Origin: a virus
Strand: one strand, 5' to 3'
Length of the DNA: 64,000 nucleotides
IMG/VR virus record: IMGVR_UViG_3300032282_004772
In this document: piece after piece, positions 5,178 through 49,304 of the stretch
How the letters are laid out: each line of letters opens with the position of its first letter
Numbering within the stretch: the stretch's first letter is position 1
The notes under the pieces: generated by a model
What the model was told of the DNA's origin: nothing
Seen by the model: the letters and a program-made list of their open reading frames with translations, nothing else
Database searches by the model: none
Program-made: the position numbers and the translations under genes

Positions 5178-5222
5178 ATATAAAATAAACTTAATATTTT
5201 TAAATGATATTTTTGAAATAAA

Positions 5223-5711: not shown

Positions 5712-5847
5712 GGTATCTTATTTTTTTAATTTCTTTTTTTGTTTATTACTTATAAATAGTATCAAGTTCAAAATTTTTCTATTTACTTTATTTTTTATTT
5801 AGATAAATTAGTACTAGAACTAGTTTTATAACTAGTTATTAAATATT

Positions 5848-6756: not shown

Positions 6757-9700
6757 TTAAATGTTGTCAAATGACGCACCTGTTGGTGTGATTAAGAATT
6801 CTATATCAATAAACTCTAACGATTTTGTAGGTTTGATATAAATTTTACCAACAAGTTGGTTTCTATCCAAATCTTCAGGTGATGAAGAAACTGTTACACG
6901 GAAATCGTATAAACCTCTGTCTCTTCTGATAGCATCTAAGATTGGGTTAACTGCGTCTAAGAAATCTTGTCTTACCTTAGAATCGTTTTGTTCGAACAAC
7001 AATCTAACTGCGACTGCCGAAATCAACTTACGAGCTTGTAATAACAATCTTCTAACATTAATTCTGTCAAGTGCAGATTCTCTAATTTGTAGAGTTTTAT
7101 TACCCCAAATTACTGTACCAACATCTGAGAATGTTGCGATTGGGTTAATTCTACCAACATATAGAGTATCTCTATCTTCTTGTGTCAGCTTACGTCTTGC
7201 TTTAATTGAGTTAACAAGACCTCTTGTGTAACCCGCTGATGCGAACCAAGGGAACGCGATATTGTCAGTTAACGCCAAGTTTCTTGTTACCTCTGCAGTT
7301 GCCGGTATGTAAAGTTGTGTATTATTAACCGTATCTCTTGTTAATACCCAAGGATAATAAGTACAAGTATAGTTAGAGTCAATTCCTGTTTGTTCAAGAT
7401 TATCAACTGCTTCAGTAGGATAAATTAAATCTGTTGAATTAGTTGTTGAAGGAACAAACATATTGAAGTCAGGTGTAGTTGTGATATACAACGAGTCTGC
7501 TCTATCATACTCAATCATATTGATTGCTTGTTCAACAAGATTTCCTTGGTTAACATAATCAATACCTGGGGTAACGAATACGTTGATATTAACCGCTTCA
7601 GGATTTTGGAATGTTTTCTGACCAAGTAAATATGCGTAGTAATCAGTATTTCCCCAATCTTGGGTGTTATCACCTACAGTAATTCTTCTGAACATTCCCG
7701 CTCCAGTTGCGTTAGGATATCTATCTGAATAACAAGCTCCCGCTAAGTATCCTGAAGAACCAACTTGGTATCTATCTGAATATGTACGATATTCTCTGTA
7801 TACATCCCATCCATCAAATCCACCTTGTACTAACAATGTGAACTTACGTGCGTATAATCTGTAATAAGGGTTAGTCTCTAATGAAGGGTCACTTCTAAAT
7901 TCCGCATCACCAACAGCAAACGATGTTTTTCCTGAAGTAACATAACCTCCAGTGATTGTAACAACAGTTGCTCCTGAGTCCATATGGAATCCTTTAGTAA
8001 TGTATGGCCAATCTTGTAATACTAAATCACAAGTATTGTTTAGATTTTGTTTACCAACATATTGGAAGAAATCTAAATCATATCCAACACTACTTGAAAT
8101 ACCTAAGTATGTTCTTCTTACGTTATCTCCTGCACTAATTGCCGGATTGTCAGTTCCATTAATATATCCAAATGGAGGGTTAAAAATAACCTCACCTGGA
8201 TAGTCATACTTAGTTTTATAGATTGGGAATGGTGACTTAACTCCATCATACATTCTAAAGTTATATCCTTCAAATCCACAAGGTAACGCGTCTATCGGAG
8301 CGTCCTCATTCATTTCAACCATAACATATTTAGAATTCAATGCGTATTCTCCGTCTTGAGAACCTATTTTCTTCGCAATGAAGTTATTTTGACCTGGGTC
8401 CATAGAACAATTTGTAAATTTCTCAAGAACGACAGGTGCTGCATCTGTATCATAAAAATCACGAATCAATACATCAAATGTCTGATTACCGAATGACATA
8501 TTAGCCATTGAAATTTTTATTTGGTCGTTAGCGCTATTTCCATCCGCGATTGAGATGAACTTAAATAATCTGTAAACTTTAGTACCTCTAAGTTCAGACA
8601 CTAACCAAGGAGACGCCGGTGCTTGATATTGTTCAAGATAACATGCAATATTTGAAGGGTCATTACTTCTTGCCGCAGGTAATTGAATTAAATTAGGTCT
8701 TAATCCCTTGATAAATCCTTTCTTATAAGCCCAATCTAACATACTTTGGAATACTTCTTCAACATAAATTGGAACTTCCGTTCTTGGTTTTGCGAAATTA
8801 GTACCACCGAATACTTTTGGTAGATATGTCGCATCAGATAAACTTAACGATGTTTTAAACACACAAGTGTTACAAACACTTCCATTGTTTACATTTATTG
8901 CAAACTTAGCATATGGGTTTTTAGTTACCGCAGAATAAGTTCCTGTAAAATCAAGAGTTACACCGCTAAGGTCAGGAATTTCATAAGTAGGACCATCATG
9001 TGTTGAATCATATGTTGATAAACCTCTAGACCTTAAAGTTGCCACAACAAGATTATTATAATTTGAATAGGTAGTACCTGTATAATAATATAATACACCT
9101 ACAACAGAACCACTATAACACTGAGGTGTTGTAGTTGTGGTAGTTGATGTAGGAATAGTTGTAGTTGTAGTTGAACATGGGTCAGGTGTAGGAGTTGGTG
9201 TTGGTGTAGGACCTGGTGTTGGTGTAGGTGTTATTGGTGTTATATTTGTAAGACCTGAAACTGTAGTAAAGAATGAAAAACCTGAATAACTTTCACCACT
9301 GTAGTTATTAAATAATGCATAATACCAAGCATCATTATAAGGTGAAGTATAATCTGTTAAATCAGACGATACTGATGGTACGTTAAACACATTTGTAGAT
9401 GCTGTTAATCCTGTCATCATATCATAATCAACAGTAGGTATTGTACCAAAATAATTAATTGAGTATGGTTCTAACGCATTATCAGCGAATATGTCTAATA
9501 ATTGTAGATTAATGTCATCTCTTAAAGTTGATATTCCACCATTAAATTGTGTATAAGGTACATCTATTAATGCCGCAATCTCAGGAGGTAATGAAGTTGT
9601 GAACTCTATAGTACCCGCTTGATTAGTACAACCTGTAAAATCGAATGTGAATGCACTTGTGATTGCAGTACAACTAATATCACATGTGTTGTCAATATAA

Positions 9701-10095
9701 TTAGGTATACTTGTACAAACTTGGTCAAAGTTAACAGTAGTTGGGTCTACATTCGCCTCGGTAATGATAGACCAAGAAGGACCCGCGTCATAACCTGACA
9801 ATCCCAATATTCTTGTCATGAACATTTGGTTAGATTGTTGTAAGTATGATTTTGCAATATACGCGGCTTCGTACTTTGGAATTTGAGTGTTTATGAATTT
9901 TTCTGGATTAGTTCCCCCGAAATAAGTTTCGAATTCGCTATAGTTAGAGATAAAGATAGGTTCAAATGCCGGACCTTTTAAAGCCTCTCCGACAATACCT
10001 AAAGTAGTAACCCCAACACTTTGCGTAACAAAACTTAAATCTCGTTCTGAAGTGTACACACCTGGTGACACGAATACTTTGCTATTTGTTGCCAT
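6757..10095 (-). CDS. Contractile tail sheath protein with large Cys/Thr-rich insertion
   Basis: N-terminal FVSPGVY..E.D.S; C-terminal PWFASAG..RG, INPI, WGNKT, RINVRRLL, P.KSLEFI motifs. Confidence 0.95.
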   Translation of the reverse strand: MATNSKVFVSPGVYTSERDLSFVTQSVGVTTLGIVGEALKGPAFEPIFISNYSEFETYFGGTNPEKFINTQIPKYEAAYIAKSYLQQSNQMFMTRILGLSGYDAGPSWSIITEANVDPTTVNFDQVCTSIPNYIDNTCDISCTAITSAFTFDFTGCTNQAGTIEFTTSLPPEIAALIDVPYTQFNGGISTLRDDINLQLLDIFADNALEPYSINYFGTIPTVDYDMMTGLTASTNVFNVPSVSSDLTDYTSPYNDAWYYALFNNYSGESYSGFSFFTTVSGLTNITPITPTPTPGPTPTPTPTPDPCSTTTTTIPTSTTTTTTPQCYSGSVVGVLYYYTGTTYSNYNNLVVATLRSRGLSTYDSTHDGPTYEIPDLSGVTLDFTGTYSAVTKNPYAKFAINVNNGSVCNTCVFKTSLSLSDATYLPKVFGGTNFAKPRTEVPIYVEEVFQSMLDWAYKKGFIKGLRPNLIQLPAARSNDPSNIACYLEQYQAPASPWLVSELRGTKVYRLFKFISIADGNSANDQIKISMANMSFGNQTFDVLIRDFYDTDAAPVVLEKFTNCSMDPGQNNFIAKKIGSQDGEYALNSKYVMVEMNEDAPIDALPCGFEGYNFRMYDGVKSPFPIYKTKYDYPGEVIFNPPFGYINGTDNPAISAGDNVRRTYLGISSSVGYDLDFFQYVGKQNLNNTCDLVLQDWPYITKGFHMDSGATVVTITGGYVTSGKTSFAVGDAEFRSDPSLETNPYYRLYARKFTLLVQGGFDGWDVYREYRTYSDRYQVGSSGYLAGACYSDRYPNATGAGMFRRITVGDNTQDWGNTDYYAYLLGQKTFQNPEAVNINVFVTPGIDYVNQGNLVEQAINMIEYDRADSLYITTTPDFNMFVPSTTNSTDLIYPTEAVDNLEQTGIDSNYTCTYYPWVLTRDTVNNTQLYIPATAEVTRNLALTDNIAFPWFASAGYTRGLVNSIKARRKLTQEDRDTLYVGRINPIATFSDVGTVIWGNKTLQIRESALDRINVRRLLLQARKLISAVAVRLLFEQNDSKVRQDFLDAVNPILDAIRRDRGLYDFRVTVSSSPEDLDRNQLVGKIYIKPTKSLEFIDIEFLITPTGASFDNI

Positions 10096-21523: not shown

Positions 21524-22327
21524 TTATTTGAAGATATCAAAATACTCTCTCCAACTACATTTGATTAAATTAAACAACTCTGGTTGTTTAACATAACATA
21601 TGTCAAATATTTTTTCATCACTACCGATATACCTATTACTTATTGATTCGTCTATTGTCTCAACAACCAAATTAAGTAATCCGTCAATTAAATGTGATGG
21701 TAATAAGAAAGCGGTTCCTTGTATATTTCTGATTTGTGATAAAGAATGAAACTGTCTATCATTAACACCAAAATGTTTATTATGACTAAAAAACGTAATT
21801 TTATTTAAATCTAATTGTGATATCTTTTCCATATTAGGCCATTTAGCCAAAGCGTAATTTTTAACATCTTCTCGTAATCCGCCAGCGTCCGCCCAAATAA
21901 CCATATCGTTATTAAAATATTTTTTTTCTATAGTATCTTTTAAAAAGAAAACTTTATTAAACATTATAATATTATAGAGTGGTTGACACATTTCAGGGAC
22001 ATCATGAAAACTTACTTTACTTTTAAAATCAGCAGCTCCCATTAATTCACATAATGAATCATTATACTTTTTATACATATCTAATTCATTCAAAGGAACA
22101 TCAACTATTATTGTCTTTGAGAAATCAGGGTCAAACTCTTTTCGATGGTTTTTAATGTCATTTATAAATTTTGTTTCGGTATAAACCACAATGTTTGCGT
22201 CTAAAGATAATGTATTTCTCATCCACCAAAGATATGTGTGATATGACATTCTAAAATTAGACCAATTCTCTCTTCCTATATCATAGAGAGCCATTACAAT
22301 TACAGGATTATTTACAGCCATTCCCAA
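21524..22327 (-). CDS. HtrL/YibB (WlaTC)-like glycosyltransferase
   Basis: ALYDIGR, Y..IMFNK..F, W.DAG, DE motifs. Confidence 0.65.
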   Translation of the reverse strand: MGMAVNNPVIVMALYDIGRENWSNFRMSYHTYLWWMRNTLSLDANIVVYTETKFINDIKNHRKEFDPDFSKTIIVDVPLNELDMYKKYNDSLCELMGAADFKSKVSFHDVPEMCQPLYNIIMFNKVFFLKDTIEKKYFNNDMVIWADAGGLREDVKNYALAKWPNMEKISQLDLNKITFFSHNKHFGVNDRQFHSLSQIRNIQGTAFLLPSHLIDGLLNLVVETIDESISNRYIGSDEKIFDICYVKQPELFNLIKCSWREYFDIFK

Positions 22328-23070
22328 GTTATTAATTGATTTTTATGTTTAATGTTTGCAATTTTTTGATTGAAATAATTTGAAGTATTATCAGGATTAA
22401 ATATTGTATTCATTTTTAAATTACGACTTGCCAAATAACTTGGAACAAACCCTTCTCCATATCCTGAAAATCCATTTTTAGTAATGTTTACTAACTCTTG
22501 CATTGCTTTATTAGAATACCTAACAATTGCAAAAAAAGAACCAAAATAATCTTTTATTTCAGGGGATAATTCGTCACCATGACCAGGAAATCTTTGGAAC
22601 CAAAGACCTTTTGAGTGCATCCTATGGTCAGCTTTAGGTATTTCAGGATATCCTTCCACATTTGAATTTTTAAATAAAAAATAACTAAGAAAATCAGAAT
22701 CGTCATTTTGAAATCCATTTAAAAATTCGTCCCAATTATCACAAGAAACGTCATCATCAAAAAACCAATAATATTCATAATTTGGGTTAGCAATATAAAA
22801 GTTAATCATTCTAAGATACGCATAAAACCAAATAATATTTCTATTACCTGCGTGATTCCAATAGTGACCCCGACTAACATCTTTTTTAAAATTAAAGTTA
22901 TTTCTTATATCGTTTTCAGTATATAAGAAAGCATTATAATTTATTGGTTTATTTTTAGAGTTATCTACAATGTAAAAAACATCTTCTTTATTTTTAAAAT
23001 AAGTCCACCAACCTATATAAGAAGTATAGGTTTCAGGAGTAAAACAAATTCCGTAACAATTTTTATACAT
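22312..23070 (-). CDS. Putative GT-A glycosyltransferase
   Basis: YEYYWFFDDDV DxD motif; sits within GT operon. Confidence 0.55.
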   Translation of the reverse strand: MYKNCYGICFTPETYTSYIGWWTYFKNKEDVFYIVDNSKNKPINYNAFLYTENDIRNNFNFKKDVSRGHYWNHAGNRNIIWFYAYLRMINFYIANPNYEYYWFFDDDVSCDNWDEFLNGFQNDDSDFLSYFLFKNSNVEGYPEIPKADHRMHSKGLWFQRFPGHGDELSPEIKDYFGSFFAIVRYSNKAMQELVNITKNGFSGYGEGFVPSYLASRNLKMNTIFNPDNTSNYFNQKIANIKHKNQLITWEWL

Positions 23071-23872
23071 AATCTTTAATTAAAACATCATTCCACGATG
23101 GGACTCTATTAAATTGATGTACAATATCATATTTAATACCTTGTTTAGTATATACAACATTACCTTCCATATATGGAATACCATACTTTAATTTACCTCT
23201 AAACCCCCATCCGTCAAAAAATGGTGTAGGACCTGCAACTGCGCAATGCATCGCCCAAGCTTCGTCTAAATTAAAAATCTTTATGTTAGGTATTTCATTA
23301 TTTGCAATCATAACTATAAGTGCCGCTTGGTCTTTTATATTATGATTATCACTACCTTTTTCACATAACTCAAAAATTCTTTTATACAGAGGTATAAGAG
23401 AAGTCCTTTTACCTCCGATGACTCCTGAACAAATAACTTCATTTGGTCTACATTTTTGAATTTCAGATGGAAATATTTTTGAAATATTATCAGTATTCCA
23501 CGGCTCATCCCCAACTAAAACACCTTCTCCACTTACAAAAATATCATAATTTAAGTCCCACTTTTCAAATGGGTCTCCCTGGAAAACAACATCAAATACA
23601 TCCGTAATTAAAAATAAATCTATTTCTGATTCGTTTAAAAACTCAAAAGTCCTTTCAATTCTTTTATGGTTTATAAACCAAGTGTTGTTTATCACAACAG
23701 GAACAGTTGTAATACCAATTGATTCACACATAGAGATTTCATCTTGTGTGGCATTTGCACACAATAAAATAACCTCTCCTTCAGAATATTTTTTAAAACT
23801 TTTAGACCAAACCAAAATTTTAGAAAAATTATCTTTTATGTTGTTAGATAGTCCTAATAATGCTTTTTTCAT
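23063..23872 (-). CDS. Putative GT-A glycosyltransferase (PLOD-GT-like)
   Basis: ITDVFDVVFQGDPF, CSG.IGG, DQA, IVHQ motifs. Confidence 0.65.
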   Translation of the reverse strand: MKKALLGLSNNIKDNFSKILVWSKSFKKYSEGEVILLCANATQDEISMCESIGITTVPVVINNTWFINHKRIERTFEFLNESEIDLFLITDVFDVVFQGDPFEKWDLNYDIFVSGEGVLVGDEPWNTDNISKIFPSEIQKCRPNEVICSGVIGGKRTSLIPLYKRIFELCEKGSDNHNIKDQAALIVMIANNEIPNIKIFNLDEAWAMHCAVAGPTPFFDGWGFRGKLKYGIPYMEGNVVYTKQGIKYDIVHQFNRVPSWNDVLIKDYV

Positions 23873-23874
23873 TT

Positions 23875-24447
23875 TTAACAGTTATGTCTTGAGATTTCCA
23901 ACTCTTCGTTGAAATTTAATATTGTTGGCCATAAGTATTCGACCAAATAATTTGTGTTATTTATTATTTCATTTTTTGGTAAAGTCTCTCTTATTTTTTC
24001 ATAAAAACCTATTCCATTTTTTAAAATTAAGTTTTTGGAAACTATACACTGAGCGGAATTTATAAATTTTATAGGTAATTTATATGTTATTTGATTTTCT
24101 TCCGCATAATTAATAGTTTGTTTTAAAATATGCTCAACGTCTCTAACATAAGTAATACCTAACGGATAAAAATCTTTCTCAAAATTAAATTCATTAACTC
24201 TTTTTATAAAGTTAGGACAATGATAAAAAGGGTCATCTTGTGAAAAACAAATATAATCAGGTAAATTATAATAATTTTCTATAATATATGTAAGATAAAC
24301 AATAGTATCAAATCCAACATTTGGTAAGTTATTCTCAAATTTATGAGCATTTTTTGGATTTTTATTATAAACAACATAGGGGTGTTTTAGTTCTGAAACC
24401 CAATCTAAATTTTCCTTAAAATGACATATAACAACTTTTAATTCCAT
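23875..24447 (-). CDS. DUF3431-like putative glycosyltransferase
   Basis: V.CHFKENL.W, LPNVG, YL.YII.NY..LP....F.Q.DPF.H. Confidence 0.7.
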   Translation of the reverse strand: MELKVVICHFKENLDWVSELKHPYVVYNKNPKNAHKFENNLPNVGFDTIVYLTYIIENYYNLPDYICFSQDDPFYHCPNFIKRVNEFNFEKDFYPLGITYVRDVEHILKQTINYAEENQITYKLPIKFINSAQCIVSKNLILKNGIGFYEKIRETLPKNEIINNTNYLVEYLWPTILNFNEELEISRHNC

Positions 24448-24448
24448 A

Positions 24449-25705
24449 TTATAATCTTCCTTCTATTTTATCACACCATCCTTTTGATTCCGAATGTGGC
24501 CAAACTATCCAATATGCGGGTTTTTCTGCGGTTTGGAATTCTCTCCAAATTTTACAATATCCGTCTCTATCGTTTTTCATTCTTGCAATTTCTGATTTGT
24601 CCACATCTTTTCTAAATAATGTTTCACCATTTTCTTTGTGGAAAGCCACTGCCCAAAAATCATAATCTTGTAATGGAACTTGATTAAATGAAACATCAAT
24701 ACAGTGTTTAAATATTTTTGCAAAACTATTCATCCATTCTTCTTCGGAATTATAGTCATACGGATTTGGAGGATACTTTTTATCTAATGTATATTGCTGT
24801 ACCGCTCTTTGGCTAAATAATAGCCCCGCATATTTTTCGTAATCTCTTAGTGTTCTTTCACTACCAAAACCAAATTGTCCAAATTCTTCGGGATTGTATA
24901 CTTCACCATCCATACTGAACAATTTTCTATTTTTTAAATGAGAGTTTTTGTTTTTTTCTCCCCATGTCTTGTCGTCATCCCACTGTTTAGTTCTTCCTTT
25001 TCTTGTATATTCATGATACACTACAATTTTATGTGGATGGAATAAATCATACCCATGAGTATACGCTCTTGCAGCAATCGAAATCTCTTCTCCATGAAAA
25101 TAAAATTCAGGGTCGTGTTGAACTTCTTTAGCAAATTGGCCTAAAGTAAAACAAAAATGAGCCGAATAAAATCTTGATGTTATTGGTTCAGTTAATTCTT
25201 GCCATCCAGGAATTGTTTCGGGTAAAAAGAACACCGCTCCTTCAGGAATGAATCTATCAAACGCCATTCTCCAAGGAACAGAAACTCTCCCTTTTGGGTC
25301 ATTATCAGGGTCAAAAGAAGACACATAACTTGTTAACAATGGTTTTTTATATCCTTTATTTTGTAGATGTTTAATCATCTCAATTAAAGTCTCGTCCCAA
25401 TCTTTTTCAAACCTCATATGAGAATCAATTTGCATTGTATACTCTTCCCCATCATATAATTGTTGAGTCAAGTTTCTTGCCCAACAAACACCCAAAGAAT
25501 CTTGGTGTGGTATATTTAAAATTCTAAATCTTTTATCATTTTCATATTCAGATAAATCATCAAATTTATCATCAGGATTAAATTGTCTCGCAATTGAAAA
25601 GACCAAATTATTTGGATTTTTTGATTGTTCTAACGCATCTTTTATTGTTGGAATTAATTGTGGGTCTCTATACGACGCTATTTGAATAAAAATTTTCATA
25701 GACAT
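24449..25705 (-). CDS. GT60 / Gnt1-like polypeptide alpha-GlcNAc transferase (Pfam GlcNAc-type)
   Basis: IF.QIASYRD, G.CWAR, QIDSHMRF, F.GEE....R.YT.GYD, YH.Y motifs. Confidence 0.85.
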   Translation of the reverse strand: MSMKIFIQIASYRDPQLIPTIKDALEQSKNPNNLVFSIARQFNPDDKFDDLSEYENDKRFRILNIPHQDSLGVCWARNLTQQLYDGEEYTMQIDSHMRFEKDWDETLIEMIKHLQNKGYKKPLLTSYVSSFDPDNDPKGRVSVPWRMAFDRFIPEGAVFFLPETIPGWQELTEPITSRFYSAHFCFTLGQFAKEVQHDPEFYFHGEEISIAARAYTHGYDLFHPHKIVVYHEYTRKGRTKQWDDDKTWGEKNKNSHLKNRKLFSMDGEVYNPEEFGQFGFGSERTLRDYEKYAGLLFSQRAVQQYTLDKKYPPNPYDYNSEEEWMNSFAKIFKHCIDVSFNQVPLQDYDFWAVAFHKENGETLFRKDVDKSEIARMKNDRDGYCKIWREFQTAEKPAYWIVWPHSESKGWCDKIEGRL

Positions 25706-39466: not shown

Positions 39467-40978
39467 ATGATTACAATAGTATATTCAACACATAAAGATA
39501 AAAATTATAACGAAAACTTTAAATCTCACTTAAAAAAGACAATTGGGGTTAAAGATTTTCAAATTTTGGAGTATGAAAACTTCAATCAATATTCTCTGGC
39601 TCAAGTTTATAATAAAGGAATATCAGAATCTATTTATGATATTGTAGTATGTTGTCATAATGATATAAAATTAGAAAATGGTTGGGGTAAAAAATTAATC
39701 AACGACTTTGAAAACAATCCTGATTATGGAATAATTGGTAAGGCCGGTAGTTGTTATTTTCCGGAATCTGGCATTTATTGGGAAAGAATGCAACAAACAA
39801 TGGTTGGTCAGGTTTATCATCATCCACAAGGAAAATCAAAATGGTTAAGTAGATACTCAGCAAAATTACCTTTTTTAATTCCTGTGGTAACAATAGATGG
39901 TCTTTTTATTTCATTCAATAAAAATAAAATTAATCATGTATTTGATGAGACAATAGGTAAATTCCACTTTTATGACCATTTATTTTGTTTACCTAATTAT
40001 TTGGATGGAGTTAAAATTGGTGTTACATCGTCATTTGAGATAACTCATGAGTCAGTAGGACAACCAAATCAAGAATTTTTTGATTCTAAAGTAAAATTTT
40101 TAGAAAAATTTGGTAAAAATCTACCATTGGATTTGAAACCTAATTTTGTATATAAAGAAGATATTAAAAAATCTGAATTTAAAAAAATAAAAAAAGTAGC
40201 AATTATAATTCCAACTAAAGGAAAAACACATTTACTATTTAATTGTGTTAGTTCATTCATTGATAATTGCGACACTAAAAAGTTTGATTTTTTTATTGCA
40301 GATACGGGGTCAAATGAAGAAGAAAAAGATTCAATAAAAAAATTCATATCCGATAATAAAGATAAAACACATATTAATTTTATCGAATACGATTACTACA
40401 ACTTTGCTAAAATTAATAACGATGTAGTTAAAAATCATATCAATGACGAATATGAATTTATATTGTTTTGCAATAACGATATTGTAGTGTTAAATAATGT
40501 GGTCGATGAAATGTTATCTACGTTTAAAGACAAGGCAAACGCTGGAACTGTAGGATGTAGACTTCATTTTGAAGATAACACCATCCAACATGATGGGGTG
40601 TTTATGGGAATTCAACAAGGAAGATTATTGTTATCACATGTTGGATTTAAGAGTTACTACAACTATTCAACATCGATTAAAACCGTGATAGGTAATACTG
40701 CTGCTTTGATGATGGTCAGAAAAAATGTTTTTATAAGATGTGGAATGTTTAATGAAGAATATGTTTCTTGTTTTGAAGATGTTGAATTAAATTTAAAATG
40801 TATTATAATTGGATTAGAGAATTATTTTTCAGGGAAATCAGTCGCATATCATTTTGAATCTCAAACAAGAAAAGATGACCCTGAAACACAAATAAATCAA
40901 TCTAAAGATTACATGAGGTTAGTACCTTTTGTTAATCAAAATATTGAAAAAATAAAAAGTAAAATTAATTTAATTTAA
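39467..40978 (+). CDS. Two-domain GT2-type glycosyltransferase
   Basis: HNDI/IDGLF/FHFYD N-terminal domain; IIIPT/NFAK.NN/NNDI/EDVEL/H.ES.TR C-terminal domain. Confidence 0.85.
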   Translation: MITIVYSTHKDKNYNENFKSHLKKTIGVKDFQILEYENFNQYSLAQVYNKGISESIYDIVVCCHNDIKLENGWGKKLINDFENNPDYGIIGKAGSCYFPESGIYWERMQQTMVGQVYHHPQGKSKWLSRYSAKLPFLIPVVTIDGLFISFNKNKINHVFDETIGKFHFYDHLFCLPNYLDGVKIGVTSSFEITHESVGQPNQEFFDSKVKFLEKFGKNLPLDLKPNFVYKEDIKKSEFKKIKKVAIIIPTKGKTHLLFNCVSSFIDNCDTKKFDFFIADTGSNEEEKDSIKKFISDNKDKTHINFIEYDYYNFAKINNDVVKNHINDEYEFILFCNNDIVVLNNVVDEMLSTFKDKANAGTVGCRLHFEDNTIQHDGVFMGIQQGRLLLSHVGFKSYYNYSTSIKTVIGNTAALMMVRKNVFIRCGMFNEEYVSCFEDVELNLKCIIIGLENYFSGKSVAYHFESQTRKDDPETQINQSKDYMRLVPFVNQNIEKIKSKINLI

Positions 40979-40979
40979 G

Positions 40980-41621
40980 ATGGCGGTTGGAGCACATAAA
41001 ATTACAGAGGACTTTGAAAGTGCGTTGTCTAAATACACAGGGGCACCATTTGTGGTAACAGTAGATAACCAAAGTAATGCGATTTTTTTGGCACTTATGT
41101 ACGAAAAAGTAAAAGGCATGGAAATTGAAATTCCAAGTCGAACTTACCCTTCAGTACCTTGTGAAATAATACATGCCGGTGCTAAAGTAAAATTTAGAAA
41201 AGTTGATGGGAGTACTATAAAAGGGGCATATCAACTAATCCCAACTAAAGTTTGGGATAGTGCATTAAGGTTTACTGTTGGTATGTATATACCAAACACT
41301 CATATGTGTGTATCGTTCACAGGCCCTTACAAACATTTAAAACTTGGTAAAGGTGGAGCAATACTAACTGATGACGAAAACGCGTATAAATGGTTTAAAA
41401 AAGCAAGATTTAGTGGGAGAGATGAATGTAGTTATCATGAAGACAACTTTGATGTAAATCCTGTAGTTGGGTGGAATTTTTACATGATGCCAGAAATATC
41501 GGCTAGAGGGTTATTACTAATGACTCAGTTTTATAATAGACAAGGTGAAGGATTGGAAAATGAAGATTTAGAATTACCATACCCTGATTTATCAAAATTT
41601 AAAATTTATACGGAACAATAA
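40980..41621 (+). CDS. Short DegT/DnrJ/EryC1/StrS-family sugar aminotransferase
   Basis: FE..L..Y.G, P..TY.SV, DSA, SF...K.L..G.GG.I.T, G.N..M. Confidence 0.75.
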   Translation: MAVGAHKITEDFESALSKYTGAPFVVTVDNQSNAIFLALMYEKVKGMEIEIPSRTYPSVPCEIIHAGAKVKFRKVDGSTIKGAYQLIPTKVWDSALRFTVGMYIPNTHMCVSFTGPYKHLKLGKGGAILTDDENAYKWFKKARFSGRDECSYHEDNFDVNPVVGWNFYMMPEISARGLLLMTQFYNRQGEGLENEDLELPYPDLSKFKIYTEQ

Positions 41622-42325
41622 TGAAAAAAATTGCAATTATGCAACCATATTTTTTTCCGTATATCGGATATTTCCAATTATTTAAGGAAATCGATGAGTT
41701 TATAATTTATGATAGAATAAAATACACAAAAAAAGGTTGGATAAACAGAAATAGGATTTTAACTACTAATGGGGTTGACCATATAAGTTTGCCAATAAAA
41801 AAAGATTCTGATTTTTTATATGTGTATGAGAGAAGTTTGAGTGATTCGTGGGAAAAAGAAAAAATAAAGTTAATCAATAAACTCAAAAATTCTTATAATA
41901 AAGCCCCGTTCTTTAAAGAGCATTTTCCAATCGTATTAGAATGTCTAAATCAAGAAGAAAAAAATTTATTTGAATTTATTTTTAATACAATAAAAATCAT
42001 TAATTCTTTTTTAGACTTAAAAACACCAATAATAAAATACTCTGAATTAAATATTAATGATGAATTAAAGGGCCAAGATAAGGTCATTGAAATTTGTAAA
42101 AAAGTTGACGCTAAGATTTATGTAAACCCAATTGGAGGGGTATCGTTATACTCAAAAGAAAATTTCAATAATGAAAACATTAAACTTAATTTTTTAAAAG
42201 TTAATAATGTTTTTTATAAACAAAGAAATAGTGATTTTATTGAGAGTCTTTCAATTATTGATGTTTTAATGTATAATTCATTATTTGATGTTAAAGAAAT
42301 CTTAAAAAAATATATTTTAATATGA
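41621..42325 (+). CDS. WbqC-like protein (putative sugar N-glycyl transferase)
   Basis: IMQPYFFPYIGYF, W.NRNRI, Y.NP.GG..LY, LSIID.L. Confidence 0.9.
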   Translation: MKKIAIMQPYFFPYIGYFQLFKEIDEFIIYDRIKYTKKGWINRNRILTTNGVDHISLPIKKDSDFLYVYERSLSDSWEKEKIKLINKLKNSYNKAPFFKEHFPIVLECLNQEEKNLFEFIFNTIKIINSFLDLKTPIIKYSELNINDELKGQDKVIEICKKVDAKIYVNPIGGVSLYSKENFNNENIKLNFLKVNNVFYKQRNSDFIESLSIIDVLMYNSLFDVKEILKKYILI

Positions 42326-43281
42326 AATGGAAAAAATTAGGTAGGATTTATAATCCTGAAGAACACTATAGCCCGAATAAAGAATGGAGAAAACACTTTG
42401 CTCAGAGTGTTAGTACATTAGTTTTTGATGATTTTATTAGAGTTTATTTTTCTTGTCGACCAGATAATGATTCTGAAGGACAGGCCAAATCATATACAAC
42501 ATACCTCGATTTAGATAAAAAAAATTTATTTAAAATTATTAAAATATCAGATAACCCTGTTATGGATTTAGGGGGTATTGGTGATTTTGATGAGTTTGCA
42601 GTTTATCCTACCTCGGTTATTAAAGAAAACGACAAAATCTTAATGTATTATGCGGGGTGGAGTCGATGTAAATCAGTACCATTTAATACTTCAATAGGTC
42701 TTGCAATAAGTGATGATAACGGTATGACCTTTAATCGAATAGGTAAAGGTCCAATTCTTTCTTCTTCTTTAAATGAACCATTTGTAATTAGTGGTCCTAA
42801 AATAAGAAAATTTAACGATAAATGGTATCTTTTTTATTTGGCGGGAAAAAAATGGATTAAAGATAATGGTACTCCTGAAATAATATATAAAATAAGGATG
42901 GCAACTTCAACAGACGGCATTAATTGGGTTAGAGTTGATAAAGACATAATATCTGACTTAATCGATGAAAATGAGTGTCAAGCAGGTCCTGATGTTTTTT
43001 ATTTAGACGGACAATATCACATGTACTTTGTTTATAGACATGGATTGAATTTTAGAAAAGAAAAAAATAGAGGATATAAAATAGGGTATGCAATATCTAA
43101 AGATTTAATTAATTGGGAAAGAAAAGACGATGAATGTGGTATTGGGTATTCTGAAGAAGGATGGGATAGTGAAATGCACCATTATCCACATGTTTTTTCT
43201 ATTGGAGATGATTACTATATGTTATATAATGGAAATGAATTTGGAAAAAATGGATTTGGGATTGCAATTTTAGAAAAATAA
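42322..43281 (+). CDS. Five-bladed beta-propeller glycosidase-like protein (GH32/43/130-like)
   Basis: Repeated MYY.G / IG.A.S.D...W blades; W.K.G.I start. Confidence 0.75.
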   Translation: MKWKKLGRIYNPEEHYSPNKEWRKHFAQSVSTLVFDDFIRVYFSCRPDNDSEGQAKSYTTYLDLDKKNLFKIIKISDNPVMDLGGIGDFDEFAVYPTSVIKENDKILMYYAGWSRCKSVPFNTSIGLAISDDNGMTFNRIGKGPILSSSLNEPFVISGPKIRKFNDKWYLFYLAGKKWIKDNGTPEIIYKIRMATSTDGINWVRVDKDIISDLIDENECQAGPDVFYLDGQYHMYFVYRHGLNFRKEKNRGYKIGYAISKDLINWERKDDECGIGYSEEGWDSEMHHYPHVFSIGDDYYMLYNGNEFGKNGFGIAILEK

Positions 43282-44438
43282 TGGACATAACATATAAAAT
43301 AAATGAATCAGATATCAACTTAATTAATAATCATTTAAATGAGTGTAATGACCATTTTATACCAAAATTAGAAAAGTACGTAAAAATATCTGAATACTCA
43401 GAAAAAATATTTAATAATTCTAAAAGATTTGAGTCTTATCTTGGAAAAGAATTAATTGGTTTAATTGCGGTATACGAAAATAAAAATAATAAACTTTTCA
43501 TTACAAATGTTAGTGTAATACCAACATTTCATGGAAAAGAAATTTCAAAAAAACTATTAGATTTTTGCGTCGAGTATTATAGACAACAAAAATTTTCAGA
43601 AATAGAACTAGAGGTTGATGAAAAAAATCTAAAAGCAATAAAATTTTATGAAAAAAATAATTTTAAAATAAAAAAAATAGATAAAAAAATTTTAATGACT
43701 ATGAATCTTAAAAGAGATTATAATGAAGAGTTTAAAGATACTCAAGACCATAAATATTCTTATGATTTTGATTTTGATGTTATGCATGGATATATGATAG
43801 ACTCCATGACACCATTTTTTAATGGGGATAATGTATTGGAATTAGGCAGTTATAAAGGTGATTTTACAAAAAGATTGATTCCATTATTCAATAATATTAC
43901 ATGTGTTGAGGCATCAGACGAAGCAATTAACATCTCTAAAACAAAATTACCAAACAATGTAAAAATCATTCATTCATTATTTGAAGATTTAAATTTAGAT
44001 GAGAAATTTGATAATATATTATTAACACATGTTTTAGAACATATTGATGAACCAACTCAATTATTAAAAAAAATAAAAGATAATTGGATATCAGACAATG
44101 GATATCTCTTTATAATTTGTCCTAACGCTAATGCGGCTTCAAGACAAATTGCGGTTAAAATGGGTCTTATTGAAAATAATTTTTCAATAACTAATTCAGA
44201 AAAATTACATGGACATAGAATAACTTACTCTTTAGATACATTAGAAAAAGACGCGGTAAACGCAGGATTAAAGGTCGCATATCGAACTGGTATATTTTTT
44301 AAAGCGTTAGCTAACTTTCAGTGGGACGAAGTCATAAATAAAAATGTAGTATCTAAAGAATATTTAGATGGATGCTATAAATTGGGACAACAATATCCTG
44401 ATTTATGTTCAAGCATAATGATAATCTGTAAAAAATAA
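43281..44438 (+). CDS. GNAT acetyltransferase-class I SAM methyltransferase fusion
   Basis: V.P.FHGK.I...LL and N.KAI.FY.K..F; then VLELGS..G, HVLEH, CPN. Confidence 0.85.
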   Translation: MDITYKINESDINLINNHLNECNDHFIPKLEKYVKISEYSEKIFNNSKRFESYLGKELIGLIAVYENKNNKLFITNVSVIPTFHGKEISKKLLDFCVEYYRQQKFSEIELEVDEKNLKAIKFYEKNNFKIKKIDKKILMTMNLKRDYNEEFKDTQDHKYSYDFDFDVMHGYMIDSMTPFFNGDNVLELGSYKGDFTKRLIPLFNNITCVEASDEAINISKTKLPNNVKIIHSLFEDLNLDEKFDNILLTHVLEHIDEPTQLLKKIKDNWISDNGYLFIICPNANAASRQIAVKMGLIENNFSITNSEKLHGHRITYSLDTLEKDAVNAGLKVAYRTGIFFKALANFQWDEVINKNVVSKEYLDGCYKLGQQYPDLCSSIMIICKK

Positions 44439-44443
44439 ATTTT

Positions 44444-45154
44444 ATGAAAATTGGAATTATTATATCAACGTATCAAAGGGAAGACGGAAAAACCCCAGTG
44501 TATTTAAATAGGACTTTAGATTCTGTTTTAGCCCAAACATATAAAAATTATAAAATATTTTTAATTGGGGATAGATATGAGAACAATGATGAGTTTGAAT
44601 CTTATGTCAAAAAAATAAATCATGTCGAGCATTATTTTGAAAATTTACCTATTGCTCATGAAAGAGATGTTTATGGTAGTAATAAAAACGCATTATGGTC
44701 TTATGGAGGAACTAATGCAACTAATTACGCTATGGACTTATGTGAAAAAGAAGGTATTGATTTTGTTGTAACTTTAAATCACGATGATTGGTGGTATGAA
44801 ACACATTTAGAAGAGTTCTACAATTGTTATGAAATGTTTAAATGCGATTTTATGTGTACAAAATCCACATTTTTTAATCCAAATAATTTTTTACCGATTG
44901 TGAATTCTAAAGAATATTATAATAGTTTTTTCCCTAGCTATGGAGCGTTGATACATTCTTCGGCAATCATTAATATAAAAAACATACCATTAAGATATAT
45001 TGATTTATTTAAAACAACGGGTAAAGTAGGATTACCCGGTGATGGAGAATATTGGAATAGGGCCACAAAATTTATGAGAGAAAATAAATTATGTGGAATT
45101 ATGATTAACAAATTAACCTGTAGACACGATGAAGAAGGATATGTCAAAAGATAA
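44444..45154 (+). CDS. GT2-family glycosyltransferase
   Basis: IIISTY.R, SVLAQTY.N, NHDD.W, GD. Confidence 0.75.
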   Translation: MKIGIIISTYQREDGKTPVYLNRTLDSVLAQTYKNYKIFLIGDRYENNDEFESYVKKINHVEHYFENLPIAHERDVYGSNKNALWSYGGTNATNYAMDLCEKEGIDFVVTLNHDDWWYETHLEEFYNCYEMFKCDFMCTKSTFFNPNNFLPIVNSKEYYNSFFPSYGALIHSSAIINIKNIPLRYIDLFKTTGKVGLPGDGEYWNRATKFMRENKLCGIMINKLTCRHDEEGYVKR

Positions 45155-45794
45155 TAAAAAAATAACATTTGAAATTACTGAAGAATCAATTTCATTAGTA
45201 AATGAAATATCAAAAAATATGAATGGTAAAACATTCCATAATCATTATCATATTTTGTACGATATTACAAATTCGATAAATAAAGATGATTTAATTTATT
45301 TAGAAATAGGTGCGTATGCTGGAGGTTCAGCATCATTAATGAGCTCAAATCATAAAATATCTAAATCATATAGTGTTGATATTGGTTATCCTATTAATAA
45401 AGAAACTGCAATTAATAATGTTTTAAAATTTAAACACAAGGATTGTGAATATCATTATTTTCACGGTAGTTCCATGGATAAAAAAATAATTGAAGAAGTA
45501 AAATCGAAAATTAATTATGTAGATATTTTATTTATCGATGGAGACCACGCTTACAATGCGGTATTATCTGATTTTAAAAATTACTCTGATTTAGTTGTTA
45601 AAGGAGGATATATTATTTTTGATGATTACTTAGATAATGTTCATAGTCCTGGCGTAAAACCTGCAGTTGATTCGTTGTGTGAAACCATAAATGAAGAATA
45701 TGAAATAATTGGCTCATTAAATTATGATTTATTAAAAAAAACCGATAATCCTAATTTAAATGGAAGTAATGAATTCATATTAAAAAAAAAATAA
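45129..45794 (+). CDS. Class I SAM methyltransferase (Methyltransf_24-like)
   Basis: LEIG...GGS, DILFIDGDH.Y, GG.I.FDDY. Confidence 0.85.
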   Translation: MKKDMSKDNKKITFEITEESISLVNEISKNMNGKTFHNHYHILYDITNSINKDDLIYLEIGAYAGGSASLMSSNHKISKSYSVDIGYPINKETAINNVLKFKHKDCEYHYFHGSSMDKKIIEEVKSKINYVDILFIDGDHAYNAVLSDFKNYSDLVVKGGYIIFDDYLDNVHSPGVKPAVDSLCETINEEYEIIGSLNYDLLKKTDNPNLNGSNEFILKKK

Positions 45795-45799
45795 TTTAA

Positions 45800-46552
45800 A
45801 TGGGAATTAATCCTAATAATCTTAAAAGTGTTAACAAAAGTTTTCATTCTAATTCAGATTTAATAAAAGACATAGTCGATAAAAAAAATTCTGAATCTAT
45901 TGTAAAAAATGATTCGTCACCTAATTTGGTTACGGAGTCAAAAAAAAGTAAAATTTTTGTTATAGGTCATAATAAAACCGCAACGACCAGTGTTATAAAA
46001 AACATTGCGGATTTTGGATTTAAAGTTGGTCATCAGATGACTGGAGAACTTATGTTATATGAGTACTTAAATAATAATTTTAATCCAATAATTGAACATT
46101 GTAAAACCGCTGACGCTTTTAAAGATGTACCATTTTCATTACATAACACATACAAACACTTAGATATCGCCTTCCCAAACTCTAAATTTATATTAACAAT
46201 AAGAGATAATGAAGATGAATGGTATGATTCTATAGTTAGATTTCATACTAAAATTTTTAAGGGTAAACTTCCTGACGCAAAATCTTTAAAAGAGTCTAAA
46301 TATATTAAAATTGGTTGGCAATACCTCGTTCACGCAAAAACATATAACGTAGAAGATAACGATTTATATAATAAAGAAAAATTAGTTATGTATTATAAAA
46401 AACATAACGAAGATGTTGAAAACTATTTTAAAGATAGACCTAACGATTTACTCATATTAAATGTGAAAGAAATAAATGGATATAAAAAATTTTGTGTTTT
46501 TTTAGGAGTGGAAAAAAAAGGTAAATTTTATCATCTTATGAGGTCAAAATAA
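45800..46552 (+). CDS. Sulfotransferase-family protein (Sulfotransfer_4-like)
   Basis: KIF.IG..KTATTS PAPS loop, D.P, FP.SKFILT.R, W..S, FLG. Confidence 0.8.
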   Translation: MGINPNNLKSVNKSFHSNSDLIKDIVDKKNSESIVKNDSSPNLVTESKKSKIFVIGHNKTATTSVIKNIADFGFKVGHQMTGELMLYEYLNNNFNPIIEHCKTADAFKDVPFSLHNTYKHLDIAFPNSKFILTIRDNEDEWYDSIVRFHTKIFKGKLPDAKSLKESKYIKIGWQYLVHAKTYNVEDNDLYNKEKLVMYYKKHNEDVENYFKDRPNDLLILNVKEINGYKKFCVFLGVEKKGKFYHLMRSK

Positions 46553-46621
46553 TCTAAAATAATAAAATCATTTCCATTTCACAATAAAAATGTATTATTA
46601 ATATATAAAAACATTAATTAA

Positions 46622-47365
46622 ATGACGGATACTAAAAAAAGAAAACCTTCGACTCATCCCCAAAAGGAAAACGAGTACAGACCACAAATGAATAAAAAAG
46701 AATTAATATCACAAATTGTTAAGAAAAAGACAAAAGATAAGTTTTTAAGTGAAAGTCAAAAAATATATTATGATATATTAAAATCAAATCAAATTACAAT
46801 TTGTTCAGGGCCCGCAGGTGTTGGTAAAAGTTATGTTTCCATGAAAGCAGCGGTTGACTTATTAATTGACCCACTTACCCCATATGAAAAATTGATAATT
46901 GTTAGACCGGCAGTTGAGGCAGAAGAGAAATTAGGTTCATTACCCGGTAATGTTGAAGAAAAATTAGACCCATATATTTTCCCATCTTATTATCTGTTAA
47001 ATAAAATTATAGGTAAAGAGGCAAGAGAAAAATTAAAAGAAATTGACGTTATAGAGGTTTTTGCGTTAGCATATATGAGAGGAATGAATATTGATAATTC
47101 AATATTAATTTTTGAAGAAGCTCAAAATTCTACGCCAAATCAAATGAAGTTATTGTTAACAAGAATTGGATATAATAGTAAGTTTTTTATTTCAGGTGAT
47201 TTAGAACAATTTGATAGACATAAAGACAAGACACAGACAGGTCTTTGGGATGTAATTAAAAAATTTGAAGGGTTAGATGATATTGGTATTTTTGAATTTA
47301 AAGATGGAGATGTAGTTAGAAATCCAATCATTAGTAAAATTTTAAGGAGGTACGAAGATAAATGA
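46622..47365 (+). CDS. phoH: PhoH-family ATPase
   Basis: GPAGVGKS, RPAVE, LG.LPG, YMRG, EEAQN, GD..Q, VVRN. Confidence 0.95.
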   Translation: MTDTKKRKPSTHPQKENEYRPQMNKKELISQIVKKKTKDKFLSESQKIYYDILKSNQITICSGPAGVGKSYVSMKAAVDLLIDPLTPYEKLIIVRPAVEAEEKLGSLPGNVEEKLDPYIFPSYYLLNKIIGKEAREKLKEIDVIEVFALAYMRGMNIDNSILIFEEAQNSTPNQMKLLLTRIGYNSKFFISGDLEQFDRHKDKTQTGLWDVIKKFEGLDDIGIFEFKDGDVVRNPIISKILRRYEDK

Positions 47366-47958: not shown

Positions 47959-48239
47959 CAAACATGCTTAAAATAATGAATGAACATTACTTTTTAGATT
48001 TAGATGAAATCGACAAGTATATTCAAATAGAACAAACTCAGCCTACAACAGGTTCAACAGGGGATAATCATATAAGCATTGTTAAATATGAAACCGTAAA
48101 ATTAATGTTAGAGGTATTAATGGACGAACATGAAGATGTCGATGATGCACTTGGAGCTAAAGGAGCAAACCATTTATCAATACCATTTAAAATTGCATTC
48201 AATACTTTAGTAAGTAAAAAAATATTAAAATCATTCTAA
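47955..48239 (+). CDS. Hypothetical protein
   Basis: 94 aa ORF overlapping the previous stop. Confidence 0.65.
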   Translation: MTNMLKIMNEHYFLDLDEIDKYIQIEQTQPTTGSTGDNHISIVKYETVKLMLEVLMDEHEDVDDALGAKGANHLSIPFKIAFNTLVSKKILKSF

Positions 48240-48244
48240 AAAAT

Positions 48245-49303: not shown

Positions 49304-49304
49304 T

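What the first reader, a model, noticed from the sequence alone, without database searches (positions are those of the whole stretch)
9115..9240. Same Cys-bounded Thr-rich cassette in tail sheath and in an unrelated structural protein 46 kb away
Seen: sheath has [32 protein letters not shown]; the 54935-56551 protein has PPTPTPTPGGNPCETVTTTIAPVTTTTTTCY (about 55300-55402). Shared architecture is (TP)n-PC-Thr run-I-(A)P-Thr6-CY. Canonical sheaths lack such inserts. Inference: a portable surface-exposed glycosylation-acceptor tag, possibly disulfide-closed, displayed on every sheath subunit.
Basis: partly seen in the sequence, partly recalled or inferred. Interest (0 to 1): 0.82.

Follow-up and report, generated by a model that had tools for sequence, protein, structure and literature searches.

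The report
Mucin-like clamped loop on phage sheath
Every tail-sheath subunit of this large uncultured freshwater phage carries a short threonine/proline-rich loop bracketed by two cysteines, a look-alike has arisen separately in a second tail-region protein, and both are most likely sugar-attachment sites for the phage's own protein-glycosylating enzymes, though no chemistry has been done.

Summary
The sheath (6757-10095, minus strand, 1112 aa) has (TP)n-DPC-T5-IPTS-T6-PQ-CY at aa 285-327. The 538-aa protein at 54935-56551 ("p2") has (TP)n-GGNPC-ETVTTTIAPV-T6-CY at aa 122-156.

Neither is a mobile cassette. Each is an insertion at the tip of a loop that is short and Cys-free in relatives.

- Sheath: 105 of 120 homologues carry the two-Cys form. 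The Cys-Cys loop is always 17-19 residues (43% Thr, 19% Pro). More distant relatives have a 5-7-residue turn without Cys.
- p2: 84 of 84 short loops have no Cys; 36 of 37 expanded loops have two or more.

The two host proteins are unrelated, and the DNA shows no copying. The residue order is nevertheless more alike than shuffles allow.

The window encodes a GT60-type polypeptide GlcNAc-transferase (PF11397, E 3.6e-68) and about ten more glycan genes. This scan had already noted that island on the same genome. GT60 was present in every related record that covers the region.

Best reading (about 0.5): surface-exposed, disulfide-clamped, mucin-like O-glycosylation loops.

Against a tight link: GT60 also occurs in relatives that lack the cassette.

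No glycan or disulfide has been measured.

The parts
6757..10095 (-). Tail sheath gene, 1112 aa, T4 gp18-like with a greatly enlarged outer region (aa ~98-826).
   Evidence: PF17482 E 5.6e-08 and phrog_23 E 9e-56. A family profile matches the T4-type sheath of 9ev2 at E 3.4e-37 and T4 gp18 (9mkb/3j2m) at E 3.8e-36 to 7.5e-35, aa 827-1110 to gp18 361-653; in the 9ev2 alignment printed, a weak N-terminal stretch 9-97 lies on 4-84 (2.7 bits). The tail tube gene lies next door at 5223-5711.
9178..9243 (-). Sheath cassette, part 1: Thr/Pro-rich tract, aa 285-306 ([22 protein letters not shown]).
   Evidence: In 105 homologues this tract varies by about 6 residues in length, with T 42% and P 16%. 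AF2 pLDDT is below 50. It is an imperfect period-6/18 codon repeat.
9118..9177 (-). Sheath cassette, part 2: C307, an 18-residue Thr-rich loop (STTTTTIPTSTTTTTTPQ), then C326.
   Evidence: C307 is conserved in 117 of 120 homologues and C326 in 114 of 120. Loop length is 17, 18 or 19 in 3, 67 and 35 homologues, with 76 distinct sequences among the 105.
54935..56551 (+). 'p2': 538-aa conserved protein of the baseplate/fibre gene block. It has a beta-sandwich-rich fold and no family assignment.
   Evidence: No Pfam or PHROG hit. 2958 homologues, all unnamed. AF2 mean pLDDT 71. Foldseek gives only generic tandem Ig/FN3-like matches with low TM. It lies between a 518-aa ORF and a 1543-aa DUF5122 propeller/LamG protein.
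55280..55402 (+). p2 insert, aa 116-156: C116, a Pro/Thr tract, NPC138, a 16-residue Thr-rich loop, then C155-Y156.
   Evidence: The ancestral loop is about 8-11 residues with no Cys. 84 of 84 short loops have 0 Cys; 36 of 37 long loops have 2 or more, at fixed distances from the loop ends. AF2 draws strands 139-145 and 148-154 as a hairpin between C138 and C155, at low pLDDT.
24449..25705 (-). GT60-type polypeptide GlcNAc-transferase, the candidate initiating enzyme.
   Evidence: PF11397 E 3.6e-68. Found in every related record that covers the region.
21524..24447 (-). Four genes downstream of GT60: a DUF3431 protein, two unknowns and an HtrL_YibB protein. Candidate further glycan enzymes.
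39467..50108 (+). Glycan-synthesis island: double GT2, DegT-like protein, WbqC, GH-like propeller, GNAT-methyltransferase fusion, GT2, sugar O-methyltransferase, sulfotransferase, a weak sub-threshold GT1-like match (PF00534, 21.4 bits against a cut-off of 26.4), GT2.
29372..34335 (-). Two further probable virion proteins (566 and 1086 aa) holding seven of the window's ten Thr/Pro tracts, five of them with Cys within 8 residues on both sides (two more if the limit is relaxed or one side is dropped). They show the same design theme.
   Evidence: Of the window's 10 T/P tracts, 7 have Cys within 8 residues on both sides, against 0.55 expected (0 of 2000 random placements reach it).

Best explanation
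The cassette is a surface decoration grown out of a beta-hairpin turn in the outermost region of the sheath subunit. It has two parts: a Thr/Pro-rich tract of about 22 residues, and a length-fixed Thr-rich loop of 17-19 residues closed at its base by a Cys-Cys bond.

The clamp lets a floppy, low-complexity segment sit in the turn without disturbing the fold. Its 15-20 Thr residues per subunit then act as mucin-type acceptors. In the infected cell the phage's GT60 enzyme adds the first GlcNAc, and the phage's other transferases and sugar-modifying enzymes extend it. The assembled tail would thus carry a dense glycan coat.

The same solution evolved separately in a loop of the baseplate-region protein p2, in a sub-lineage that includes this phage.

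Shown here: the insertion history, the Cys co-occurrence, the length constraint, the composition (not sequence) conservation, and the presence and conservation of the enzymes.

Inferred: exposure on the assembled tail, the disulfide, the glycosylation and its purpose (shielding from proteases or grazers, reduced non-specific sticking, or host-glycan contact).
For: 1. Insertion at a hairpin turn.
- Distant relatives read strand, then 5-7 residues without Cys, then strand, at the same place.
- AF2 places long strands 269-284 and 326-342 on either side, with the cassette at pLDDT below 50.

2. Position. Sheath aa 98-826 stand where gp18's exposed domains I/II stand (the gp18 domain map is from memory of Aksyuk et al. 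2009).

3. The site tolerates loss (3 clusters) and a 100-aa extra domain (6 clusters), as expected of an exposed site.

4. Cys arrives with the insert.
- Sheath: 105 of 111 cassettes have exactly two Cys.
- p2: 0 of 84 short loops against 36 of 37 long loops.

5. Loop length is fixed at 17-19 while the sequence is free (76 distinct among 105; T 43%, P 19%). Close relatives in other metagenomes show no indel except one single-codon deletion.

6. Enzymes.
- GT60 (PF11397) at E 3.6e-68, about 14 kb from the sheath gene.
- It is present in all records that hold the sheath gene plus the flank, 26 by my count, including 4 of 4 complete genomes.
- At least ten more glycan genes lie in the window.

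7. A GT60-type enzyme of T. cruzi uses the peptide KPPTTTTTTTTKPP as acceptor (PMC3769586).

8. Tract flavour agrees within genomes in 3 of 3 pairs: TP+T with TP+T in the window, T-runs with T-runs in G018 and in ERZ28594507 scaffold_1. The window's p2 cassette is closest to its own sheath's among 111 sheath cassettes.
Against: - No mass spectrometry, lectin or redox data exist for any member.
- GT60 is equally present in relatives whose sheath and p2 lack the cassettes (G024, G025, G034, G035, G037, G039, G045). Enzyme and cassette therefore do not co-vary, and the enzyme must have other substrates.
- Six sheath clusters have lost the second Cys yet keep the loop, so the clamp is dispensable.
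- Virion proteins fold in a reducing cytoplasm, and no Erv1-type oxidase was found, though that search had a silent control.
- The AF2 models are of low confidence exactly here, and I could not read coordinates to measure Cys-Cys distances.
- Whether the phage GT60 prefers Thr, Ser or hydroxyproline was not tested.
- The within-genome concordance rests on three pairs.
Confidence: 0.5

Rival explanations
1. Unmodified structural loop or spacer. This would be a PT-linker-like, protease-resistant, extended segment, with or without the disulfide. It would add bulk or spacing to the sheath surface, or give slack during contraction, with no sugar attached.
For: - Thr/Pro tracts are common linkers; the window has ten of them in four proteins.
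- PT-coding DNA is extremely common in the same freshwater metagenomes: depth is 100-1000 times the flanks at 9185-9232, contributed by unrelated contigs.
- GT60 does not co-vary with the cassette.
Against: - In the sheath it does not join two domains. It sits in a hairpin turn that is 5-7 residues long in relatives.
- Thr-runs without Pro, the commonest form in the family, are not classical rigid PT linkers.
- A conserved protein-GlcNAc transferase and a large glycan toolkit need substrates.
Confidence: 0.27
2. A neutral low-complexity expansion. Codon-repeat slippage fills any tolerant surface loop, and the likeness of the two cassettes reflects shared mutational bias rather than shared function.
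For: - Imperfect period-6/18 repeats in the DNA.
- p2 relatives carry (PT)n inserts from 10 to about 130 residues at the same site.
- Composition-adjusted BLAST sees nothing.
Against: - Sheath loop length is held at 17-19 over more than 100 diverged homologues, and the Cys pair is kept in 105.
- Thr codons in the cassette are mixed synonymous codons, like those elsewhere in the gene.
- Cys flanking of T/P tracts is far above chance.
Confidence: 0.13
3. A direct adhesion element. A disulfide-closed Thr-ladder beta-hairpin would bind polysaccharide or another surface, as Ig-like decoration domains on phage particles do.
For: - AF2 draws the p2 loop as a two-stranded hairpin (139-145 and 148-154) between C138 and C155.
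- The length constraint fits a small folded element.
- In six sheath clusters a folded Cys-rich domain sits at the same site.
Against: - The hairpin has pLDDT 40-53, and none is drawn for the sheath loop.
- The TP-type loops, with Pro at every second position in 35 homologues, cannot form a regular hairpin.
Confidence: 0.07

Closest known systems
Mucin-type acceptor repeats of protist GT60 polypeptide alpha-GlcNAc-transferases (T. cruzi mucins; Dictyostelium Gnt2 substrates)
   Same: Thr-runs flanked by Pro. The synthetic acceptor KPPTTTTTTTTKPP (PMC3769586) closely resembles PC-STTTTTIPTSTTTTTTPQ-C. An enzyme of the same Pfam family (PF11397) is encoded about 14 kb from the sheath gene.
   Different: The carrier is a bacteriophage contractile-sheath subunit made in a bacterial cytoplasm, not a Golgi-processed surface mucin. 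The tract is short and Cys-clamped. No glycan has been shown, and the enzyme's acceptor preference is untested.
Mycobacteriophage virion glycosylation (Freeman et al. 2023, as cited in PMC12619734)
   Same: Phage-encoded glycosyltransferases modify major repeated virion subunits (capsid and tail tube), giving a glycan coat on the particle.
   Different: There the glycans sit on C-terminal extensions of capsid and tube proteins, and the enzymes belong to other families. Here the candidate site is an internal clamped loop of the sheath and of a baseplate-region protein, and the case is predicted only.
Pro/Thr-rich interdomain linkers of bacterial glycoside hydrolases (own knowledge)
   Same: (PT)n low-complexity composition. 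Some are O-glycosylated. They are extended and protease-resistant. The coding repeats are slippage-prone.
   Different: Those join two folded domains and vary freely in length. The sheath element sits in a hairpin turn, has a 17-19-residue length-fixed part and is bracketed by Cys.
Exposed insertion domains of T4 gp18 and other large sheaths; Ig-like decoration domains on phage particles (own knowledge)
   Same: The location is in the variable outer region of the sheath subunit, which tolerates insertion and loss.
   Different: Those are folded domains. This is a low-complexity loop predicted to be disordered.

Membership tests
Contractile tail sheath (T4 gp18 type; PF04984/PF17482) | Conserved C-terminal sheath domains | tested here: met
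   PF17482 scores 33.2 bits, above its cut-off of 26.9. PF04984 scores 21.7, below its cut-off for this sequence, but is recorded for most homologues. phrog_23 E 9e-56. The family profile matches gp18 chains at E 3.8e-36.
Contractile tail sheath (T4 gp18 type; PF04984/PF17482) | Gene neighbourhood with tail tube and baseplate genes | tested here: met
   Tail tube phrog_4542 at 5223-5711, and baseplate hub (PF12322, phrog_150) at 4369-5127.
Mucin-type O-glycosylation acceptor of a GT60 enzyme | Clustered Thr with flanking Pro, in an exposed or disordered segment | tested here: met
   19 Thr in 43 residues of the sheath cassette; pLDDT below 50. Across 105 homologues the loop holds 7.7 Thr on average.
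Mucin-type O-glycosylation acceptor of a GT60 enzyme | A cognate polypeptide GlcNAc-transferase in the same genome | tested here: met
   PF11397 E 3.6e-68 at 24449-25705. Present in all related records that cover the region.
Mucin-type O-glycosylation acceptor of a GT60 enzyme | Enzyme and acceptor co-vary across genomes | tested here: not met
   GT60 is present in seven records whose sheath has only a short Cys-free turn.
Mucin-type O-glycosylation acceptor of a GT60 enzyme | Glycan actually attached to these Thr residues | not testable with these tools
   Needs mass spectrometry of virions or of co-expressed proteins.
Mucin-type O-glycosylation acceptor of a GT60 enzyme | Linkage to Thr rather than to hydroxyproline (the Skp1/Gnt1 mode) | tested here: inconclusive
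   Prolyl-hydroxylase-type PF13640 genes are absent from G042, a complete genome with the cassette, and from G018. They are present in three cassette-less genomes. The enzyme's specificity was not tested.
Interdomain PT linker | Connects two independently folded domains | tested here: not met
   Relatives have a 5-7-residue turn between the same two strands. In p2 the ancestral loop is about 8-11 residues.
Interdomain PT linker | Freely variable length | tested here: inconclusive
   Not met for the sheath loop, which is 17-19 only. Met for p2-family inserts, which run from 16 to 160 residues.
Disulfide-closed loop | Paired Cys at the loop ends, gained and kept together | tested here: met
   Exceptions: six sheath clusters lack the second Cys, and three cassette-less clusters keep one.
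Disulfide-closed loop | The two sulfur atoms within bonding distance, and oxidised in the virion | not testable with these tools
   Model coordinates are not readable here and pLDDT is low. The redox state needs experiment.
Mobile or shared cassette (common origin of the two copies) | Nucleotide or composition-corrected protein similarity beyond low-complexity background | tested here: not met
   Longest common DNA word is 14 nt, p = 0.49. BLASTP finds nothing significant. Only the arrangement beats shuffles.

The most novel reading that the evidence does not exclude
These freshwater jumbo phages coat the contractile tail itself with mucin-type O-glycans. Each sheath subunit would display roughly 15-20 glycosylated Thr on a disulfide-clamped double loop. 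The acceptor tracts of different virion proteins within one genome would converge on the same flavour (TP-type or T-run) because they are read by the same phage GT60 enzyme. That would be a virus-encoded, eukaryote-like mucin system operating in a bacterial cytoplasm.
Probability: 0.3. Interest if true: 0.75.

Novelty: new variant of a known kind. Interest (0 to 1): 0.55.

Why it matters
Protein glycosylation of phage particles is documented for only a few phages, and there on capsid and tube termini. A conserved, clamped acceptor loop on every sheath subunit would mean the following.

- Hundreds of glycan clusters along a contractile tail.
- A defined short peptide on which to test a bacterial-virus GT60 enzyme.
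- A simple, possibly reusable design rule: a Cys pair plus a Thr/Pro tract dropped into a hairpin turn, as a way to display floppy segments on rigid assemblies.

It also gives the GT60 island, which this scan already noted on the same genome, two further concrete candidate substrates.

Tried and rejected
- Recent copying between the two sites: rejected. The DNA word test gives p = 0.49 and BLASTP gives E 0.31.
- GT60 presence or absence tracking the cassette: rejected. GT60 is universal in the group.
- Hydroxyproline route through a phage prolyl hydroxylase: PF13640 genes exist only in cassette-less genomes among the five searched, so this is not favoured.
- Phage Erv1/ALR sulfhydryl oxidase (PF04777): no match in five records. 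The control genomes were silent too, so this says nothing.
- Homology of the extra domains inserted at the same sites in other lineages (P0170 in p2, P0022 in the sheath) with the Cys-rich modules of ORF 29372-31072: none by BLASTP.
- Naming p2 failed. Pfam, PHROGs, Foldseek against PDB (only generic Ig/FN3-like tandem matches, TM 0.11-0.18) and the ESM Atlas (only unnamed viral clusters) gave nothing. The neighbouring 518-aa ORF has no PDB sequence match.
- GT60 protein against PDB sequences: no hit at 1e-3.
- The whole-sheath AF2 model is poor outside aa 104-480 (mean pLDDT 47). The VIA search gave only Z 6.3 to a haloarchaeal virus sheath.
- More sheath/p2 pairs from metagenome records (for example P0136, which has a long PT insert) could not be fetched.
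- No RNA holder was listed for this stretch.
- No whole genome is held for the window.
- Literature searches found no report of a glycosylated or Thr-rich sheath insert.
Full report
**What is there**

The minus-strand ORF 6757-10095 encodes a 1112-aa tail sheath.
- Pfam PF17482 and PHROG phrog_23 match it.
- A profile of its family matches T4 gp18 chains at E 3.8e-36. Residues 827-1110 align with gp18 361-653. A weak N-terminal stretch, 9-97, aligns with residues 4-84 of the T4-type sheath 9ev2.
- The roughly 730 residues in between therefore stand where gp18 has its two exposed domains. That domain map is from my memory of the gp18 structure papers.
- The tail tube and a baseplate hub gene lie just downstream.

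It reads [43 protein letters not shown].

The second protein, here called p2, is at 54935-56551 and has 538 aa.
- At aa 116-156 it reads C-SADTSLAPLPPTPTPTPGGNP-C-ETVTTTIAPVTTTTTT-C-Y.
- p2 has no Pfam or PHROG family.
- Its predicted fold is beta-sandwich-rich.
- It sits between a 518-aa ORF and a 1543-aa propeller/LamG protein.
- Its virion role is therefore inferred from context only.
- The two host proteins are unrelated.

**Is the likeness real?**

For:
- The motif [ND]PC-(6-30)-C occurs only at these two places in all six frames of the window.
- The residue order is far more alike than composition-preserving shuffles: 112 against 57 +/- 7.6. With Cys positions fixed, p = 0.0002.

Against:
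- Shuffles break natural runs.
- Composition-corrected BLASTP reports nothing.
- Other TP tracts of the window score 66-102 against the sheath cassette.
- The DNA shares no word longer than synonymous shuffles give (14 nt, p = 0.49).

The shared architecture is real. A shared origin is not shown.

**History of the sheath cassette**

Among the 120 best homologues (64-80% identity, all from metagenomes):
- 105 have a Thr/Pro tract, then [ND]PC, then a loop, then C[YF][ST]G, with exactly two Cys.
- Six clusters have lost the second Cys.
- Three have lost the whole cassette and keep a single Cys.
- Six carry an extra Cys-rich domain of about 100 aa in place of the first tract, yet keep a 19-residue loop that is not Thr-rich.

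The Cys-Cys loop is 17, 18 or 19 residues in 3, 67 and 35 cases.
- There are 76 distinct sequences among the 105.
- Composition is T 43% and P 19%.
- Two flavours occur: T-runs, and TP alternation.

More distant relatives have sheaths of 1056-1082 aa. At the same place they read strand, then 5-7 residues, then strand, with no Cys; an example is SSLTSGASSTFTGT.

The cassette is therefore an insertion into a hairpin turn. It is old within one clade and constrained in length, but not in sequence.

The AF2 model agrees:
- Confident strands 269-284 and 326-342 flank the cassette.
- The segment between them has pLDDT below 50.
- The rest of the model is poor (mean 47).

Contigs of close relatives in other freshwater metagenomes cross the cassette without indels, apart from one single-codon deletion.

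**History of the p2 insert**

The common form of p2 (about 500 aa) has FRIP-KTSGSTGNPQ-WDEGVGYD. The window's lineage and a few others have expanded this loop:
- to Cys-bounded T-runs,
- to (PT)n tracts of up to about 130 residues,
- or to T-runs flanking an extra Cys-rich domain.

All 84 short loops have no Cys. Of the 37 long loops, 36 have at least two Cys; the exception is an N-terminally truncated fragment. The outer Cys sit at fixed distances from the loop ends.

In the window, C116 and C155 match that outer clamp. C138, in the NPC motif, is an extra third Cys, so the pairing in p2 is ambiguous. AF2 draws 139-145 and 148-154 as a hairpin between C138 and C155, but at pLDDT 40-53.

Paired genomes show that the two inserts are independent in time:
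- Three records have the sheath cassette with a short p2 loop.
- Seven have neither.
- Only the window, G018 and one ENA scaffold have both.

**A wider theme**

The window has ten Thr/Pro tracts in four proteins. Seven of them have Cys within eight residues on both sides, against 0.55 expected; none of 2000 random placements reach seven. The others lie in ORFs 29372-31072 and 31075-34335.

**Why glycosylation is the leading reading**

- ORF 24449-25705 is a PF11397 (GT60-type) polypeptide GlcNAc-transferase at E 3.6e-68. I found this, before I read the earlier notes of this scan.
- It is followed by DUF3431, two unknown genes and HtrL_YibB.
- A second island at 39467-50108 holds several GT2 genes, DegT, WbqC, a GNAT-methyltransferase fusion, a sugar O-methyltransferase and a sulfotransferase.
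- PF11397 matched none of 14 control bacterial genomes.
- It matched every related phage record that holds the sheath gene with enough flank. The six misses are contigs that end before the expected position, about 18 kb upstream of the sheath. All four complete genomes have it.
- A GT60-type enzyme of T. cruzi transfers GlcNAc to Thr of the peptide KPPTTTTTTTTKPP (PMC3769586). That peptide is very like the loops here.
- Prolyl-hydroxylase-type genes are absent from the complete cassette-bearing genome G042. That argues for Thr rather than hydroxyproline linkage.

**What weakens it**

- GT60 is just as present in phages whose sheath and p2 lack the cassettes. The cassettes would be later additions to the substrate set of an existing system, not its reason for being.
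- Nothing chemical is known.
- The disulfide is inferred from co-occurrence only. Six clusters do without the second Cys.
- No oxidase was found, although that search was uninformative.

**A suggestive extra**

The window's p2 cassette is more like its own sheath's cassette than like any of the 110 other sheath-family cassettes (score 112, median 69). In the three genomes with both inserts the flavour agrees:
- (TP)n plus T-runs in the window.
- T-runs only in G018 and in the ENA scaffold that carries P0004 and P0140.

Three pairs are too few. The pattern is nevertheless what a shared reader enzyme, or gene conversion, would give.

**Verdict**

- The 'portable tag' reading is not supported. 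These are independent, convergent insertions that follow one design rule.
- 'Surface-exposed, probably disulfide-clamped glycosylation acceptor' is the best-supported mechanism, at about even odds.
- An unmodified structural loop is the main rival.

The lineage may be the freshwater, Bacteroidota-associated large phages described as 'moraphages', which have four core glycosyltransferase families (PMC12619734). I did not test that identity.

Earlier follow-ups of this scan (e1-5742771, e1-5742781) had already described the GT60 island and the Thr-Pro proteins beside it on this same genome. This report adds:
- the sheath and p2 as candidate substrates,
- the insertion histories,
- the Cys rule,
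- the length constraint.

Noticed in passing
window 15178-16857 (+): A 559-aa ORF whose first ~230 residues are a complete Fe/Mn superoxide dismutase (PF00081 + PF02777, E 6e-39). About 330 residues with no family follow.
   Followed up: no
window 9185-9232: The (TP)n-coding stretch draws summed contig depth of 480-6200 in four freshwater metagenomes, against 2-10 on its flanks. The depth comes from many unrelated contigs. PT-linker-coding DNA is thus very abundant in these communities and can mislead k-mer or read-recruitment analyses.
   Followed up: partly
window 31075-34335 (-): A 1086-aa protein with a very Cys-rich middle (CxxC and CC clusters), two Cys-flanked TP linkers and a C-terminal papain-like C1 peptidase domain (PF00112; phrog_16701 E 8e-52).
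   Followed up: no
window 56578-61209 (+): A 1543-aa protein directly after p2, with nine or more DUF5122 beta-propeller repeats (E 4e-120) and a weak sub-threshold concanavalin/LamG-like match (PF13385, E 1.1e-05, 26.0 bits against a cut-off of 27.6). It is a likely host-recognition protein.
   Followed up: no
G019 (IMG/VR record), sheath locus L183: In this relative the sheath loop reads NPC-NPGGGGGGGVTTTTTTEPD-S. A Gly7 run replaces the first Thr-run and the second Cys is lost.
   Followed up: no
G024, G028, G034 (related complete genomes): These carry two or three 2OG-Fe(II) oxygenase (PF13640, prolyl-hydroxylase-type) genes each. They belong to the clade whose sheath lacks the cassette. 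None was found in G042, a complete genome that has the cassette.
   Followed up: partly
window 2296-2472 and 28236-28470: In-frame tandem DNA repeats lie inside ORF 1965-4190 (24/48-nt units, 80-84% matches) and ORF 28199-28678 (72-nt unit, 3.3 copies). They suggest repetitive fibre-like protein segments.
   Followed up: no
window 11422-12798 (-): A 458-aa ORF two genes upstream of the sheath, beyond the 344-aa ORF 10383-11417. Its C-terminal 110 residues match the Mycobacterium phage L5 gp82 domain (PF25735, E 1e-30).
   Followed up: no
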